Assembly: GCF_030222135.1 (NCBI RefSeq) | Contig: NW_026988463.1 | Location: 27,048,907-27,112,906 of the forward strand | Direction: 5' to 3' | DNA from: Aotus nancymaae | Lineage: Eukaryota | DNA: 64,000 nt | Shown here: positions 29,811-40,620 of the stretch, piece by piece | Position numbering within the stretch: the stretch's first letter is position 1 | Layout of the letters: each line of letters begins with the position of its first letter | The notes under the pieces: model-generated | Database searches by the model: none | Told to the model about the DNA's origin: nothing | Seen by the model: only the letters and a program-made list of their open reading frames with translations | Position numbers and translations under genes: made by a program

Positions 29811-29832
29811 TGTCTCTCTCTCTCTCTCTCTC
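29811..29832. repeat. (TC)n microsatellite followed by C- and T-homopolymers
   Basis: tctctctctctctctctctctc ccgcacgcgtccccccccttttttttt. Confidence 0.9.
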
Positions 29833-29859
29833 TCCGCACGCGTCCCCCCCCTTTTTTTT

Positions 29860-34649: not shown

Positions 34650-34978
<329 letters not shown>

Positions 34979-35008
<30 letters not shown>

Positions 35009-35622: not shown

Positions 35623-35653
<31 letters not shown>
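35345..35653 (+). repeat. Alu SINE, about 260 bp from the ASPHD1 exon 1 donor
   Basis: Alu consensus with a 30-nt A tail. Confidence 0.9.
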
Positions 35654-35914: not shown

Positions 35915-36791
35915 CCAGATGGCATCTGACCCGGGCATTGGTGGGCCCGCAGCGGCCCTCAAGCCGGGCCCCAGGCAGGAGGACGGAAAAGCCGGCATTG
36001 CCGAAGGTGTTGGCACTCATAAAGCTTCGAAGTCCCCTCAGTGCCCGATAGGCCCCCGGGCACCGGCGGCAGTTGCTGGGTTGGCACCGGCCTGCTTGGT
36101 ACAGCAGGAGCTGGTAGCACCCGGGGGCCAGAGGTGGGGACCAGCCCCGAGGCGGGGGGGTAGTCCCTGAGAAGTCCCAGCTCACAACCCCGAAGTCCCG
36201 CAAAATGGCAGGGAAGCTGCTCTCCAGGAGCTCCACGTCGTGCCGCTGGGCGTCCCGCGGCACAAAGGGGGCTGAAGGCAGGTCTGGTAGGAAAAGCAGG
36301 CCTGGGCGCTGAATGCCTAGGACCCCTGGCCCTCCCCCGGGGCCTGGGCCACCCTGAGCCGCCCGCCTCACTCTACCCATCCCAGCCCAGGAGTAGCGCC
36401 GGGCGTAGGCCCGAAGCCGCCGGCTCACTAGGCCTTCTGTCCTAGGTCCTTCCCCGGGCTCCCCAGGACCCCTTGAGCTTGGCCCGCCAGCCTCCGAGCA
36501 TCCCACAGGCCCACCACGAACACCCCCAGCCCGACTCCCAGCCCCCAGGGCCTGCATGTCTTGGGAACCCAGGCGGTAGCAGTACCAGAGGAACAGAGAA
36601 GTGAGGGCCCCAAGGAGCAAGGTGAGGGCCGAGGAGGCCAGAGGCAGTGGCCATGGGAGCATTGTCAGGGAGGCCCTGGCCAAGAGGCCTGGAGCGTCCT
36701 CCGGACCCCAGTTCCTCTGTCCTCCCAGGTCCCCACCTGTCCCTTCCATGGCTGTCCCCTGGCTCCCCGATGGGCTGTTTCCCTTCCACAT
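35915..36791 (-). CDS. ASPHD1: ASPHD1 coding exon 1 (first in-frame ATG at 36791; true start uncertain)
   Basis: The 294-aa - strand ORF MWKGNSPSGSQGTAMEGTGGDL...MLPWPLPLASSALTLLLGALTSLFLWYCY (TM)...GRCGPTNARVRCHLG ends at donor ctgg|gtaagt. An in-frame stop 24 codons upstream (complement of 36861-36863) bounds the possible start. Confidence 0.75.
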
Positions 36792-36829
36792 TCCACTCTG
36801 GGCTCTCTCCTTCCGCGGTCCTCTCTCCT

Positions 36830-37260
36830 CTCTCCACGCTGAAGCTCCTTCTCCCCTCCTTCATGCACCTCCTAACCCTCCTCTCCCTTTCTCTCCTCTC
36901 TTCTCTCTCCTTCTGCCTTTTCCTCCTCTCCCTCTGTCGCCTCCTCTCCCTCTTCTTTCTCCTTTCAGCAGCCTCCTCTCTGTCCCTCTGCTTCTCTCTC
37001 CCCCCCTTGGTCTCCCCCTTTCCTTCTCCCCCCACCCACCCCCGCTTTTCGCTCGCTCTCTCCCTCCCCGCTTCCTCCTAGCTCCCCTGGGCAGCAGTTC
37101 CTACCCCTCCTGGACCTGCAGCCCCGAAAACCCGCAGCCTGTCTTCCTCCGTGGCAGCTTCTTTCTCTCCTGCTCTTTCCTTGCCCTCGCTCCTCACTCG
37201 CCCCGACCCTGCGGTCCTGCCTGGCTCTGGCTCCCTCTCTCCTACTCGCTCCTTCCTTGG
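36830..37260 (-). repeat. Homopurine (GA-rich, - strand) / homopyrimidine (CT-rich, + strand) tract of about 420 bp in the ASPHD1 5' region
   Basis: The + strand is almost pure C/T (ctcctctccctttctctcctctcttctctc...). It generates artefactual Pro/Ser-rich + strand ORFs and Arg/Glu-rich - strand ORFs. Confidence 0.85.
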
Positions 37261-37467
37261 CTCCCACTCACCCTGACGTCACTCCTTCCCGGAGCCCTCT
37301 CAGCTCAGCCACCCCCGACCCCTCCCAGTGGCGCTGCAAGTCAGCCGGGGGCCGGGGGAGGGGGAGAGTCGTCTCAGGTTGTGTCTCCCGCCCCCCAGCC
37401 CGGAAAGGGCGCCACGTGGGGCGCAGGGGCCAAGGTGCCAGCCTCCAGCCGCCCCGCAGTGCGAAAG

Positions 37468-37515
37468 AAGGGGCGGGGCCTGAGGGGGGCGGGGCCTGTG
37501 GGGCGGGGCGGGGCG
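37468..37515. promoter_or_regulatory. Cluster of four Sp1-type GC boxes (GGGGCGGGG)
   Basis: aaggggcggggcctgaggggggcggggcctgtggggcggggcggggcgagc. Confidence 0.6.
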
Positions 37516-37676
37516 AGCTCGGGCTGACAGCCGGGCAAACTCCCGGGACTGCGGGCAAGGACGCCAAGGCCAGTCCGTCGGGCGGCCGGTCCCTCGGTCG
37601 GTCGGCCTGTGACTCCCGCTGGCCCTGGGCCAGTCCGGGAGCCCGCGAGCCCGGCGGACACCTAAAGCGGCCTCAG

Positions 37677-37690
37677 CCAATCGTGGGCGG
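37677..37690 (+). promoter_or_regulatory. CCAAT box followed by a GC box
   Basis: cagCCAATcgtGGGCGGcg. Confidence 0.4.
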
Positions 37691-37935
37691 CGCCAGGCCG
37701 GACCAGCCCCGGCTGGGCGAGGGGAGCTGTCCGCGCGCCACTGGTGCTGAAAAGAGCGCTCGGGAGGGAAAATCAGGGCCGAGGCCGCCTGTTAGCTGGC
37801 CCGGGTCATGGTGTATGGAAGAGGAGGGGTCTATCTCTCCTTCCCAAACCCCGGACCGTCACCCACGAGACTTCTCACAATCGTGGAAGCTGGCCATTCT
37901 CCTGGGGGAGGGAGAGCCCATTCCACCCGAACTGC

Positions 37936-37943
37936 TATAAAAG
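37936..37943 (+). promoter_or_regulatory. TATA-like element (TATAAAAG) within the CpG island
   Basis: ctgcTATAAAAGgcgaagg on the + strand, about 860 nt upstream of the SEZ6L2 ATG. Confidence 0.3.
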
Positions 37944-38790
37944 GCGAAGGGAAGCCCCGTGGGGAGTCTGGATGTGTACAGGGGGCATAATGGGGGGCCG
38001 AGCAGGCGTGAACCAAGCTGTGCAGCCCCTCGGCGCCCTGGGAAAAAGAGATTCAGATTCCAGATGTGCTGGAATGGCAGGGGGAGGGGGCTAATTACTG
38101 CTGGGACCAGAGAGTTTCCTTTGCCTCCCCTAGGGGCCGCGGGAGTAAGGATTACAGCCCTGGCTCGTATGATCCCTCCCTCCTCCATCTGCACTTCCTC
38201 CTCCTCCCTCCCCGTCAAATAAATCCCAGGCCCCTCCCTTCGCCCGTCCCCAGGATCTGACGTGGGCTCGATACCTTTCTCAGCTTCTCCCTCCCTCAGC
38301 TCCAGTGTCCGAGCTTCGGCTCTCCCAGTTCCCCAACCCACCCCTTCCCTTCCCCGACAAGCCCCGCTAGAGTCCAGAGGGGACCCCCCCATCCTCGACC
38401 CCACCCTAGGCCCCCAGAAGCTGCCTTCCTCCTCCTCAGTCCCCTAGCTTGTGGTTCAGCCAGCCCGGTGGATCCAGGCGCCTGAGCAGGAGGGTAACCC
38501 AGGCCACCCGGCCCCTTCGGCCCTCTCGGCCCCACCCCCTGCAGCCGGAGCCGCGCCCCCTCTACCACAGAGCCTGGAGCAGAGGACAGAGGAGACTGAG
38601 CAAAGAGGGGTGGGCTCCAGGCGACCCCTGCCCAATTCGGCCCCTCCATCCCAAGGGGCAGAGAAATTGTCTTTCTTTGCTGACTCCTGCGGGGGGGTGG
38701 AAAAAGATTTAAAGGGAAAGATAAAAGGAAACGGAGAAAAGGTGGCAGCCAGATTACTTAGAGAGGCACAGAGGAGAGAGATCGGGGTGA

Positions 38791-39042
<252 letters not shown>

Positions 39043-39750: not shown

Positions 39751-39978
<228 letters not shown>

Positions 39979-40620
39979 TAGAGGTGGAGGGAGGGACATG
40001 GGCTCAGGGAGATGGGGAGCCAGGCTGGAGAAGAGCAGGCAGAGAGAGATGCAGAGGAGGCAAGAGCCTGCAGGAAGGCCGGTGAGATTCAGGGGACACA
40101 GAACAAGACCGTCAGAGAAAGTCAAAGCTGGGCACAGACAGAACCAGAGAAAGAGATAGAATGATCTGGAGATGGTCAGACAGAAAAACAGACACATAGA
40201 AAGAGAGATGGAAAATGAGAACCAGAGTCAAAGTAATGGTGGAAGACAGAGGGAGAGAGAATGAAACACAAAAACTAGTGGATCTTGAATCAAGACATCA
40301 GACTGCAATCAGAATACTAAACAGGGAAACGAGGAAATAAAGAGTTCCAGAGAGAGGGAGACAGAGGAGAGAGGAGATAACCAGAGAGAGAGCCCGATCT
40401 GAACGATCTGACCAGGAGGCAGAGAGAGGCTTACGGAGAGAAGCATCAGGGTGGAAGGGGCTGGGTGGAGAGAAGGGATGGAAATAGAAACAGGGGGAAC
40501 TCAGGCTGTGAAAGTCTTGGGAGGATGTGAGGGGTTGGGGTGGGGAAGGGAAAAGTGGGGTGCTGTACCTTGTAGGGCAGGCTTTGGGGGTACAGCAGGG
40601 GAACCCCTAGTTTCCCCTAG

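What the first reader, a model, noticed from the sequence alone, without database searches (positions are those of the whole stretch)
36830..37260. A 420-bp homopurine/homopyrimidine mirror tract in the ASPHD1 5' region
The + strand is almost exclusively C/T and the - strand (the ASPHD1 sense strand) almost exclusively G/A. Tracts of this length and purity can adopt H-DNA or triplex structures and are mutational or recombination hotspots. If transcribed, the tract forms a long GA-rich ASPHD1 5'UTR leader that could bind polypurine-binding proteins and modulate translation. The same tract explains the long spurious ORFs on both strands (Pro/Ser/Leu-rich on the + strand, Arg/Glu/Lys-rich on the - strand)
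Basis: seen in the sequence. Interest (0 to 1): 0.5.

Follow-up and report, generated by a model that had tools for sequence, protein, structure and literature searches.

The report
Purine-rich 5' leader of ASPHD1
The flagged stretch is the GA-rich untranslated leader at the start of the ASPHD1 gene in a monkey genome; it is real, transcribed and kept purine-rich across placental mammals, but it is an ordinary interrupted low-complexity tract, not a mirror repeat able to form triplex DNA.

Summary
The strand asymmetry is real but overstated. Window 36830-37260 is 82% pyrimidine on + (purine on the ASPHD1 sense strand). Only a 205-235 bp core (36845/36876-37079) reaches 91-92%, and the longest uninterrupted run is 39 nt. 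It is the strongest R/Y segment in the window (score 125; simulations at most 25).

"Mirror" fails. The longest mirror arms are 8-9 nt, no better than shuffles, and no H-DNA motif by the published definition is present here or in five of six orthologues.

The tract is the exon-1 5' leader of ASPHD1. It lies between a conserved CRE (37274-37281) in the head-to-head SEZ6L2/ASPHD1 CpG-island promoter and the conserved start codon (36791). A spliced orthologous cDNA contig carries it, with its 5' end mapping to about 37235.

Eutherian leaders keep their length (390-447 nt) and purine content (79-83%). The dense core nevertheless diverges at intron rate with about twice the indels.

The leader is predicted to fold half as strongly as symmetric RNA of the same GC content.

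Best reading: an open, AG-rich scanning leader. R-loop-prone G-skew and neutral slippage are live rivals.

The window is probably Aotus, not human. This is a new member of a known kind, of low to moderate interest.

The parts
36792..37235 (-). Inferred ASPHD1 5' leader in exon 1. About 444 nt, 82% purine, sense GC skew +0.61, AT skew +0.69. The flagged tract is essentially this leader.
   Evidence: The spliced orthologous cDNA contig L012 aligns to exon 1, exon 2 and exon 3 of the window, and its 5'UTR aligns to 37214-37092. Its 5' end aligns to about 37235.
36845..37079 (-). Dense core of the tract. 235 bp at 90.6% purine on the sense strand; 204 bp at 91.7% from 36876. Cryptic 45- and 52-nt internal duplications.
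   Evidence: Maximal-segment analysis. TRF periods 9, 18, 45 and 52 with 65-80% matches. Aotus-Pan divergence is 10.4 substitutions and 2.5 gap openings per 100 bp.
36876..36914 (.). Longest uninterrupted pyrimidine (+) / purine (-) run, 39 nt.
37074..37125 (-). Conserved mixed-composition island inside the leader (GGGGCTGCAGGTCCAGG..GGTAGGAACTGCTG..GGGGAGCTAGGAGG). Present in all eutherians aligned, in the cDNA and, recognisably, in Sarcophilus.
   Evidence: Alignments; Sarcophilus sequence. RNAalifold gives only a weak hairpin with no covariation.
36949..36980 (-). Second conserved island (GAGAGGAGGCTGCTGAAAGGAGAAAGAAGAGG).
   Evidence: Alignment.
36862..36864 (-). Upstream ATG in weak Kozak context (AGGTGCATGA). 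It is the annotated start in apes (MKEGRG...). Here it is +1 out of frame and opens a 140-codon uORF that overlaps the main start. The in-frame stop TGA at 36863-36861 closes the main frame upstream.
   Evidence: Human reporter data show the downstream AUG initiates better than the annotated one (PMC7397870).
35917..36791 (-). ASPHD1 exon-1 coding sequence, from the conserved start MWKGNSP... to a GT splice donor.
   Evidence: ORF. 100% identity to Aotus nancymaae ASPHD1. tblastn exon map.
37262..37281 (-). Core-promoter block: palindromic CRE TGACGTCA (37274-37281) followed by GGGTGAGTGGG. It lies about 40 nt upstream of the inferred transcript 5' end.
   Evidence: Identical in Aotus, Pan, Budorcas, Cricetulus, Mastomys, L011 and Sarcophilus. 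The echidna keeps only the CRE.
37290..37800 (.). Shared CpG-island promoter between ASPHD1 (-) and SEZ6L2 (+). Contains an E-box (37413-37418), three GC boxes (37470-37508), a CCAAT box (37677-37681) and an RE1-like split site (37727-37750, minus strand).
   Evidence: GC 0.70-0.78 and CpG o/e 0.45-0.88. Motifs; conservation. The SEZ6L2 ATG is at 38797 on +.

Best explanation
Shown:
- The flagged interval is the 5' untranslated leader of ASPHD1 exon 1 on the minus strand.
- It begins about 40 nt downstream of a therian-conserved CRE in the head-to-head SEZ6L2/ASPHD1 CpG-island promoter and runs about 445 nt to the conserved start codon at 36791.
- It is an interrupted, cryptically repetitive, purine-rich low-complexity sequence, not a mirror repeat.
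- Across eutherians its length (390-447 nt) and strand composition (79-83% purine) are maintained. Most of its sequence turns over at intron-like rate with extra indels, and two short islands are conserved.

Inferred mechanism: the property that matters is the near absence of pyrimidines in the mRNA leader.
- With about 12% C and 6% U the leader cannot pair with itself, so it offers an open track for the scanning 43S complex despite 62% G+C.
- It is almost free of upstream AUGs and stop codons.
- It is made of the AG-rich single-stranded motifs that recruit and activate eIF4A1, and that rocaglates clamp.
- The single weak-context upstream AUG is bypassed by leaky scanning, and translation starts at the conserved AUG.

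The strong G/A skew of the non-template DNA strand just after the TSS is a necessary corollary. It may add R-loop-dependent effects on the promoter.
For: - Anatomy: ORF and orthology; SEZ6L2 head-to-head.
- Transcription: L012 is a spliced contig whose exons 1-3 map to window 36790-35913, 32901-32785 and 31992-31710. It has a 407-nt 5'UTR colinear with the tract, and its 5' end maps to about 37235.
- Conservation of composition and length: the best 200-nt purine window upstream of the ATG is 0.82-0.92 and at or above the 99.9th percentile of its locus in all seven eutherian loci and in Sarcophilus. Across the six eutherian leaders, purine is 0.79-0.83, GC skew 0.59-0.64, length 390-447 nt, with 0-1 uATG.
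- Sequence turnover: the core shows 10.4 substitutions per 100 bp against 10.4-10.9 in introns, and 2.5 against 1.1 gap openings.
- Open leader: MFE is -84.6 kcal/mol (-0.19 per nt). Strand-symmetric random RNA of the same GC gives -179 +/- 13; the adjacent CDS gives -219 and the CpG island -244.
- AG-rich 5'UTR motifs activate eIF4A1 (PMC9976904). RocA clamps eIF4A on polypurine 5'UTR motifs (PMC9891901 abstract).
- Leaky scanning: the uATG has T at -3 and A at +4. In human ASPHD1 reporters the downstream AUG outperforms the annotated one (PMC7397870).
Against: - No transcript, CAGE or ribosome data exist for this species or for human in the tools used. The TSS is inferred from one RNA-seq-assembled contig of an unidentified eutherian.
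- At short range the core evolves at the intron (neutral proxy) rate. The transition/transversion test for purine-preserving selection is not significant (14:3 against 147:66, p=0.41).
- Composition is weaker in the echidna (0.62 over the leader).
- The purine-rich sequences at the same position in a turtle (a G-rich 46-nt minisatellite) and a caecilian are not alignable, so they are analogous at best.
- Low predicted structure follows automatically from the composition (z = -1.18 against dinucleotide shuffles). It is therefore a property, not independent evidence of selection.
Confidence: 0.5

Rival explanations
1. R-loop / GC-skew element. The function lies in the DNA-RNA hybrid, not the mRNA. 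A G- and purine-rich nascent transcript re-anneals to the pyrimidine-rich template just downstream of the TSS. The resulting co-transcriptional R-loop keeps the CpG-island edge unmethylated, sets a Pol II pause and helps separate the two divergent transcription units.
For: Sense-strand GC skew is +0.56 to +0.70 in 200-nt windows and up to +0.79 in the core, starting at the inferred TSS at the edge of a CpG island. G-cluster initiation zones at 37043-37000 are followed by hundreds of nt with >=40% G (the rule is recalled from QmRLFS-finder, my own knowledge). GC skew predisposes to R-loops at unmethylated CGI promoters (PMC3787257) and marks Pol II pause sites (PMC4617957). The skew is conserved in all eutherians.
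Against: No R-loop data could be consulted. No paper links ASPHD1 to R-loops in a relevant way. R-loop models need G-richness, whereas here A is enriched over T as strongly as G over C (AT skew 0.5-0.7). That fits a 'no pyrimidines in the RNA' constraint better. The tract reaches right up to and past the start codon rather than tracking the TSS alone.
Confidence: 0.2
2. Neutral low-complexity DNA. A GA-rich microsatellite-like sequence arose in the leader of an early mammal and has been perpetuated by replication slippage and local duplication, without function of its own.
For: Cryptic tandem structure (periods 9, 18, 45 and 52). Intron-like substitution rate and doubled indel rate in the core. 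A block of A<->G differences at 36886-36900 looks like a register shift. Lineage-specific expansions occur: a 76-nt pure GA run in the hamster and a 46-nt G-rich minisatellite in the turtle. The ts/tv test is not significant.
Against: Purine fraction and total leader length stay within narrow limits (0.79-0.83; 390-447 nt) in primates, rodents and artiodactyls. This holds despite turnover that should randomise R/Y through transversions over roughly 90 Myr per lineage (the expectation is inference). The CRE-tract-island-tract-ATG architecture is recognisable in a marsupial.
Confidence: 0.25
3. H-DNA / intramolecular triplex. Under negative supercoiling the tract folds into a triplex that stalls polymerases and causes instability.
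For: The core is >=90% R/Y. Promoter-proximal homopurine/homopyrimidine tracts are classic S1-hypersensitive sites (PMC11667243). The indel rate is modestly elevated.
Against: Mirror symmetry is required, and a single symmetry-breaking transition abolishes H-DNA (PMC11667243). The best arms here are 8-9 nt, as expected by chance. No motif meets the arms >=10 / spacer <8 / >=90% R/Y definition. The same holds in five of six orthologues, so triplex potential is not the conserved property.
Confidence: 0.04
4. Downstream promoter platform for GA/GC-box zinc-finger proteins (MAZ, SP/KLF, ZNF148/281-type or vertebrate GAGA-like factors). These would bind duplex or single-stranded R/Y DNA and tune the bidirectional promoter.
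For: The tract abuts a conserved CRE, E-box and GC-box promoter and is full of GGGAGG/GGAGGGG-type words (sequence). This class of factors is known to bind such sequences (my own knowledge, not tested).
Against: No binding data are available. Individual motifs are not positionally conserved outside the two islands, and those islands are the least purine-pure parts.
Confidence: 0.1

Closest known systems
AG-rich / polypurine 5'UTR sequences that recruit and activate eIF4A1 and are clamped by rocaglates (Schmidt et al. 2023, PMC9976904; RocA literature, e.g. PMC9891901)
   Same: A single-stranded, AG-rich sequence in a transcribed 5' leader upstream of the start codon.
   Different: Here almost the whole ~445-nt leader is purine-rich, rather than short motifs sitting next to stable structures. 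eIF4A dependence or rocaglate sensitivity of ASPHD1 was not testable, and no paper reports it.
GC-skewed (Class I) CpG-island promoters that form co-transcriptional R-loops (Ginno et al. 2013, PMC3787257; PMC4617957)
   Same: Strong positive G-over-C skew co-oriented with transcription, starting at the TSS at the edge of an unmethylated-type CpG island.
   Different: The skew is far stronger than a typical promoter skew (my own knowledge). It is accompanied by an equal A-over-T skew, and the tract itself is CpG-poor. R-loop formation is untested.
H-DNA-forming homopurine/homopyrimidine mirror repeats (c-MYC promoter element, PKD1 intron 21; review PMC11667243)
   Same: Promoter-proximal R/Y strand asymmetry, with >=90% purity over about 200 bp.
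   Different: No mirror arms >=10 bp. Purine runs are interrupted at most every 39 nt. The motif definition is not met in this or most orthologous sequences.
GA-rich simple repeats / microsatellites
   Same: Low complexity, slippage-type indels, lineage-specific pure (GA)n expansion in the hamster.
   Different: Not a pure or regular repeat in primates (TRF matches 65-80%). The position, length and composition persist across eutherians and recognisably in a marsupial.
Weak-context annotated AUG with a stronger in-frame downstream AUG (Benitez-Cantos et al. 2020, PMC7397870; human ASPHD1 was one of the ten tested genes)
   Same: The same upstream AUG sits in the proximal edge of the tract in a weak context, and the same conserved downstream AUG follows 72-73 nt later.
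   Different: In this window the upstream AUG is +1 out of frame. It therefore gives an overlapping uORF rather than a longer proteoform.

Membership tests
H-DNA motif (intramolecular triplex-forming mirror repeat) | Homopurine/homopyrimidine content >=90% | tested here: inconclusive
   The core 36845-37079 is 90.6%, but the claimed span 36830-37260 is only 82%.
H-DNA motif (intramolecular triplex-forming mirror repeat) | Mirror-symmetric arms >=10 bp with spacer <8 bp (definition in PMC11879447; mirror symmetry is obligatory, PMC11667243) | tested here: not met
   Longest arms are 9 nt (spacers 7 and 9) and 8 nt (spacer 2), within shuffle expectation. A scan with the published definition finds none in the tract. 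The positive control (TC)n at 29813-29834 and the hamster (GA)n are found.
H-DNA motif (intramolecular triplex-forming mirror repeat) | S1 / chemical reactivity under negative supercoiling | not testable with these tools
   Needs plasmid probing or S1-END-seq/PDAL-seq.
5' untranslated leader of a protein-coding mRNA | Present in mature spliced mRNA, colinear with and upstream of the CDS on the sense strand | tested here: met
   Met in an orthologue. The spliced contig L012 (SRR22936722) carries a 407-nt 5'UTR that aligns to window 37235-36792. Not tested for this species itself.
5' untranslated leader of a protein-coding mRNA | Not under coding constraint; the main start codon lies downstream | tested here: met
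   In-frame stop at 36863. The uATG is out of frame. There is a 1-nt frame difference between Aotus and Pan, with 13.9% divergence in the uATG-ATG segment against 4.6% in the CDS. Most mammals start at MW[KR]G.
GC-skewed R-loop-forming CpG-island promoter (Class I) | CpG-island promoter with positive GC skew co-oriented with transcription just downstream of the TSS | tested here: met
   The island at 37300-37800 has GC 0.70-0.78 and CpG o/e up to 0.88. Sense skew over the leader is +0.6 to +0.8.
GC-skewed R-loop-forming CpG-island promoter (Class I) | RNA:DNA hybrid detected (DRIP, bisulfite footprint) | not testable with these tools
   No data accessible. The literature search was uninformative.
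eIF4A1-activating AG-rich 5'UTR | AG-rich single-stranded motifs in the 5'UTR | tested here: met
   82% A+G over 444 nt. MFE is about half that of symmetric RNA of equal GC.
eIF4A1-activating AG-rich 5'UTR | Translation depends on eIF4A1 or is rocaglate-sensitive | not testable with these tools
   No ASPHD1 entry was found in accessible texts or supplements.
Microsatellite / tandem repeat | Regular head-to-tail unit with high copy identity | tested here: not met
   TRF gives only weak overlapping periods (2, 9, 12, 18, 45, 52 nt) at 65-80% matches and scores of 30-120.
Known structured RNA family (Rfam) | Match to a covariance model at gathering score | tested here: not met
   Only two sub-threshold miRNA-model hits, with E of 0.27 and 0.81.

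The most novel reading that the evidence does not exclude
Selection acts on the strand composition itself: a leader nearly free of pyrimidines, and so of stop codons, upstream AUGs and self-pairing. That composition has been maintained in mammals for more than 100 Myr while the sequence turns over.

This stop-free 'runway' has repeatedly let new upstream AUGs change the ASPHD1 N-terminus or create overlapping uORFs. Marsupial and monotreme models start at MPPWPL/MPSWPL, some eutherians at MEGTGG, most at MWKG, and apes at MKEGRG. In Aotus and macaque the same AUG is out of frame.

The leader would then be a tunable, lineage-specific translational control module for a dosage-sensitive 16p11.2 gene.
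Probability: 0.2. Interest if true: 0.5.

Novelty: new member of a known kind. Interest (0 to 1): 0.25.

Why it matters
The practical value is mostly corrective.
- The tract should not be catalogued as an H-DNA or mirror element.
- It places the ASPHD1 transcription start about 40 nt downstream of a conserved CRE.
- It shows that the stop-free purine leader misleads gene prediction. Examples are the Aotus model patched with micro-introns, the sloth and Myotis models translated through the leader, and the ape start codon that reporter assays show to be the weaker one.

If the compositional constraint is real, ASPHD1 would be a clean natural example of a leader selected for "no pyrimidines" rather than for sequence. 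ASPHD1 lies in the 16p11.2 dosage-sensitive interval and has been proposed as a driver of reproductive-timing traits (bioRxiv 10.1101/716415, title listed). Such a leader would be a predicted rocaglate/eIF4A-sensitive and R-loop-prone locus. That would be testable, but not surprising to specialists.

Tried and rejected
1. Mirror-repeat and H-DNA scans, perfect and imperfect, with shuffles and the published motif definition: nothing beyond chance.
2. Rfam scan of 36000-38200 at permissive E-value: only two chance-level miRNA hits.
3. RNAalifold on the conserved island 37125-37074 in 8 species: a weak 9-pair hairpin, -6.3 kcal/mol, covariation term -0.09. No evidence for a conserved structure.
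4. Whole-leader fold against dinucleotide shuffles: z = -1.18, not significant.
5. Transition/transversion test for purine-preserving selection, Aotus against Pan: 14:3 in the core against 147:66 in introns, p=0.41, underpowered. I did not extend it to deeper pairs, because alignment in a 90%-purine region forces R-R mismatches.
6. I first took Logan contigs L010 and L011 for cDNAs. They are genomic, with exon 1 read through into the intron. Only L012 is spliced.
7. Canonical G-quadruplex (loops <=7): none. One long-loop candidate at 37043-37014 is partly deleted in Pan, so it is not conserved.
8. Literature: no paper combines ASPHD1 with polypurine, or with SEZ6L2 plus 'bidirectional promoter'. 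The '5' UTR' query was rejected as malformed. ASPHD1 with R-loop gave nothing relevant. No supplement was held for the MYCN/rocaglate paper.
9. Coding reading of the tract in this species is rejected: there is an in-frame stop at 36863 and a frameshift relative to apes.
10. The claim of amniote-wide orthology was scaled back. The turtle tract is a lineage-specific G-rich 46-nt minisatellite without the CRE, and the caecilian has only a ~100-nt patch.
11. The species of the cDNA run could not be identified from protein similarity.
Full report
**1. Observation**

Window 36830-37260 has C216, T138, G51 and A26 on the + strand, which is 82% pyrimidine. That is a marked asymmetry but not "almost exclusively C/T". 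Maximal-segment analysis puts the dense part at 36845-37079 (235 bp, 90.6%) or 36876-37079 (204 bp, 91.7%). A looser 80% segment spans 36712-37326. The longest uninterrupted run is 39 nt (36876-36914), then 27, 23 and 20 nt.

The tract is the top-ranked R/Y-asymmetric stretch of the 64-kb window at every scale tried. Its segment score of 125 compares with a mean of 20.9 and a maximum of 25 in Markov simulations, and a maximum of 24 in local shuffles. TRF finds only weak overlapping periodicities (9, 18, 45 and 52 nt at 65-80% matches). It is therefore cryptically repetitive low-complexity sequence, not a microsatellite.

**2. Gene anatomy and species**

The minus strand carries ASPHD1 exon 1. 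An ORF runs from ATG 36791 (MWKGNSP...) to a GT donor after 35917. Its translation is 100% identical to the UniRef Aotus nancymaae ASPHD1 entry and 96% identical to Pan and Macaca. The window is therefore most probably a New World monkey genome, not human.

Exons 2 and 3 lie at about 32901-32785 and 31992-31885. SEZ6L2 starts at 38797 on the + strand ([17 protein letters not shown]...). The SEZ6L2(-) / ASPHD1(+) / KCTD13-like BTB gene order, with a CDS-to-CDS gap of 1.9-2.2 kb, recurs in the chimpanzee, bonobo, takin, hamster, Mastomys, tenrec and Tasmanian devil loci. The tract thus lies between a head-to-head CpG-island promoter (GC 0.70-0.78, CpG o/e up to 0.88 at 37300-37800) and the ASPHD1 start codon.

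**3. Is it transcribed?**

Most Logan contigs recovered are genomic, with exon 1 read through into the intron. One is not. L012 (SRR22936722_35252, 2005 nt) encodes a full-length, correctly spliced ASPHD1 (P0018...[17 protein letters not shown]...FAPAP). By blastn it maps to the three window exons with both introns removed.

Upstream of its start codon it carries 407 nt (74% purine). This stretch is colinear with the tract, and its first base aligns to window position ~37235. That is about 40 nt downstream of a palindromic CRE (TGACGTCA, 37274-37281). The CRE is followed by GGGTGAGTGGG, and the block is identical in primates, takin, hamster, Mastomys, a murid-like contig and the Tasmanian devil. 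The echidna keeps only the CRE.

So in at least one eutherian the tract is part of the mature mRNA leader and is not spliced out. For this window the same is inferred from the conserved architecture. The species of L012 could not be identified.

**4. Comparative picture**

An alignment of seven eutherians shows a well-conserved promoter. It contains an RE1-like split site, a CCAAT box, GC boxes, an E-box and the CRE block. Downstream comes a purine-rich leader in which only two islands are conserved (37125-37074 and 36980-36949). The rest is indel-rich GA sequence.

Measured from 40 nt past the CRE to the conserved ATG, eutherian leaders are 390-447 nt long. They are 79-83% purine, with GC skew +0.59 to +0.64, AT skew +0.51 to +0.69 and 0-1 upstream ATG. 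The best 200-nt window is 0.82-0.92 purine and lies at or above the 99.9th percentile of its own 13-30 kb locus in all eutherians and in Sarcophilus.

The Tasmanian devil shows the same order of CRE, GGGTGAGTGGG, GA tract, island, GA tract and ATG. The echidna is weak, at 0.62 over the leader.

A turtle has 280 bp of 87% purine directly upstream of its ATG. However, this is a G-rich 46-nt minisatellite with no CRE nearby, and a caecilian has only a ~100-nt patch. I treat those two as analogous, not demonstrably homologous.

Between Aotus and Pan the figures per 100 bp are:

| Segment | Substitutions | Gap openings |
|---|---|---|
| Dense core (37079-36865) | 10.4 | 2.5 |
| Introns | 10.4-10.9 | 1.1 |
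| Upstream half of the leader (37261-37080) | 6.0 | 0.5 |
| CDS exon 1 | 4.6 | 0.0 |

The two Pan species are identical over 600 bp. A ts/tv test for purine-preserving selection is not significant.

The supported statement is this: composition and length are stable across eutherians while most of the sequence is not. Whether selection or self-perpetuating slippage explains that remains open.

**5. H-DNA**

H-DNA requires a homopurine/homopyrimidine mirror repeat, and a single symmetry-breaking transition abolishes it (PMC11667243). The working genomic definition is arms >=10 bp, spacer <8 bp and >=90% AG/CT (PMC11879447).

In the tract the longest perfect mirror arms are 9 nt (spacers 7 and 9) and 8 nt (spacer 2). 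They are reached by 65% of dinucleotide shuffles and 96% of mononucleotide shuffles. Global mirror identity is 0.40, against 0.43 expected.

A scan with the published definition finds nothing in the tract. It finds nothing in the orthologous regions of bonobo, takin, Mastomys, Tasmanian devil or turtle either. It does find a (TC)n at 29813-29834 in the window and the 76-nt (GA)n run in the hamster. The "mirror / H-DNA" reading is therefore not supported, and triplex potential is not the conserved property.

**6. RNA-level properties**

The 444-nt leader is A144, G225, C54 and T26. Its predicted MFE is -84.6 kcal/mol, or -0.19 per nt. Strand-symmetric random RNA of the same GC content gives -179 +/- 13. 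The adjacent CDS gives -219 and the adjacent CpG-island sequence -244.

This openness follows from the composition (z = -1.18 against dinucleotide shuffles). No Rfam family matches, and the conserved island shows no covarying structure.

AG-rich single-stranded 5'UTR motifs recruit and activate eIF4A1 (PMC9976904). Rocaglamide A clamps eIF4A on polypurine 5'UTR motifs (PMC9891901). I therefore predict, but cannot test, an eIF4A-loading, rocaglate-sensitive, easily scanned leader.

**7. DNA-level corollary**

The non-template strand just downstream of the inferred TSS is extremely G- and A-skewed. It contains G-cluster initiation zones (37043-37000) followed by hundreds of nt with >=40% G. GC skew at CpG-island promoters predisposes to R-loops and marks Pol II pause sites (PMC3787257 and PMC4617957). 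This is the main functional rival or complement. The equally strong A-over-T skew, and the extension of the tract to the start codon, fit an RNA-level constraint slightly better. That preference is inference.

**8. Start codons**

The leader has a single upstream ATG at 36864-36862, in weak context (T at -3, A at +4). In apes it is in frame and is the annotated start (MKEGRGSFSVERGARKERETAQSE-MWKG).

Here it is 73 nt from the main ATG, so it is +1 out of frame, and it opens a 140-codon overlapping uORF. A TGA at 36863 closes the main frame. The macaque partial model reads in the same frame as Aotus. The segment between the two ATGs diverges by 13.9% between Aotus and Pan.

Benitez-Cantos et al. 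2020 chose human ASPHD1 among ten genes with a conserved weak annotated AUG. They found in all ten that the first downstream AUG initiated better (PMC7397870; also cited in PMC8287933). This agrees with 36791 being the functional start.

The stop-free tract also explains several odd gene models. These include the Aotus UniRef model with micro-introns, the sloth and Myotis models translated through the leader, and N-terminally extended prokaryote-style ORF calls on Logan contigs.

**9. Comparison and verdict**

The tract works like, and can be filed with, purine-rich 5' leaders and GC-skewed CpG-island promoter-proximal regions. It fails the defining test for H-DNA motifs and is not a regular microsatellite.

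No paper in the searchable library describes it. It is a new member of a known kind. The anatomy is well supported. The mechanism, an open AG-rich scanning leader with possible R-loop effects, is inferred. A neutral slippage origin cannot be excluded.

Noticed in passing
window 37727-37750 (minus strand): RE1/NRSE-like split site, TCAGCACC-N10-GGACAG, in the shared promoter. It is conserved in all eutherians aligned. That would fit REST control of the neuronal genes SEZ6L2 and ASPHD1. The REST-motif identification is from my own knowledge of the consensus and was not tested.
   Followed up: partly
window 37262-37281 (minus strand): A palindromic CRE (TGACGTCA) is immediately followed by GGGTGAGTGGG, which contains a perfect 5' splice-site-like GGTGAGT. 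The block is identical from primates to the Tasmanian devil. The cDNA contig starts about 30 nt downstream and the tract is not spliced out, so the role of the 5'ss-like motif is unexplained (core promoter or TSS element? U1 site?).
   Followed up: partly
window 36862-36864 and 36791 (minus strand); P0001, P0002, P0003: The ape-annotated ASPHD1 start codon is in frame only in apes. In Aotus, and apparently in macaque, it is +1 out of frame and gives an overlapping uORF. The UniRef Aotus model rescues it with micro-introns. Published human reporter data favour the downstream AUG.
   Followed up: yes
P0034 (Choloepus), P0066 (Myotis), P0006/P0008/P0010 (Logan ORF calls): Several database protein models for ASPHD1 are translated through the stop-free purine leader, giving Arg/Glu/Lys/Gly-rich pseudo-N-termini. 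This is an annotation artefact caused by the tract.
   Followed up: partly
window 37470-37515: A tandem 16-nt GC-box repeat (GGGGCGGGGCCTGAGG, about 2-3 copies; three GGGGCGGGG boxes). Its copy number differs between Aotus, Pan, takin and rodents.
   Followed up: no
L004 5886-5961 (Cricetulus): The hamster orthologue of the tract contains a 76-nt uninterrupted purine run, largely (GA)n. It is the only orthologue that meets the H-DNA motif definition (arm 25).
   Followed up: partly
L009 5713-5991 (Pangshura turtle): A G-rich 46-nt minisatellite (5.9 copies, GC 80%, 87% purine) lies directly upstream of the turtle ASPHD1 start codon. It has the same strand bias and position as the mammalian tract, but it is not alignable and has no CRE nearby.
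   Followed up: partly
window 39961-40560 (+ strand): The second-ranked asymmetric stretch in the window: 600 bp, 75% purine on the SEZ6L2 sense strand. It is probably in SEZ6L2 intron 1, because it contains stop codons.
   Followed up: no
window 29813-29835: A (TC)n dinucleotide run of 23 nt. It is the only sequence in the 64-kb window that meets the published H-DNA motif definition.
   Followed up: no
window 37014-37043 (minus strand): A G-cluster, GGGGGTGGGTGGGGGGAGAAGGAAAGGGGG, is a long-loop G-quadruplex or R-loop-initiation candidate in the leader. About 9 nt of it are deleted in Pan, so it is not conserved.
   Followed up: partly
window 34977-35007 and 35624-35653: T30 and A30 homopolymer runs in ASPHD1 intron 1, consistent with Alu-type insertions. 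This part of the intron aligns poorly with Pan (25.6% mismatches, 667 gap columns).
   Followed up: no
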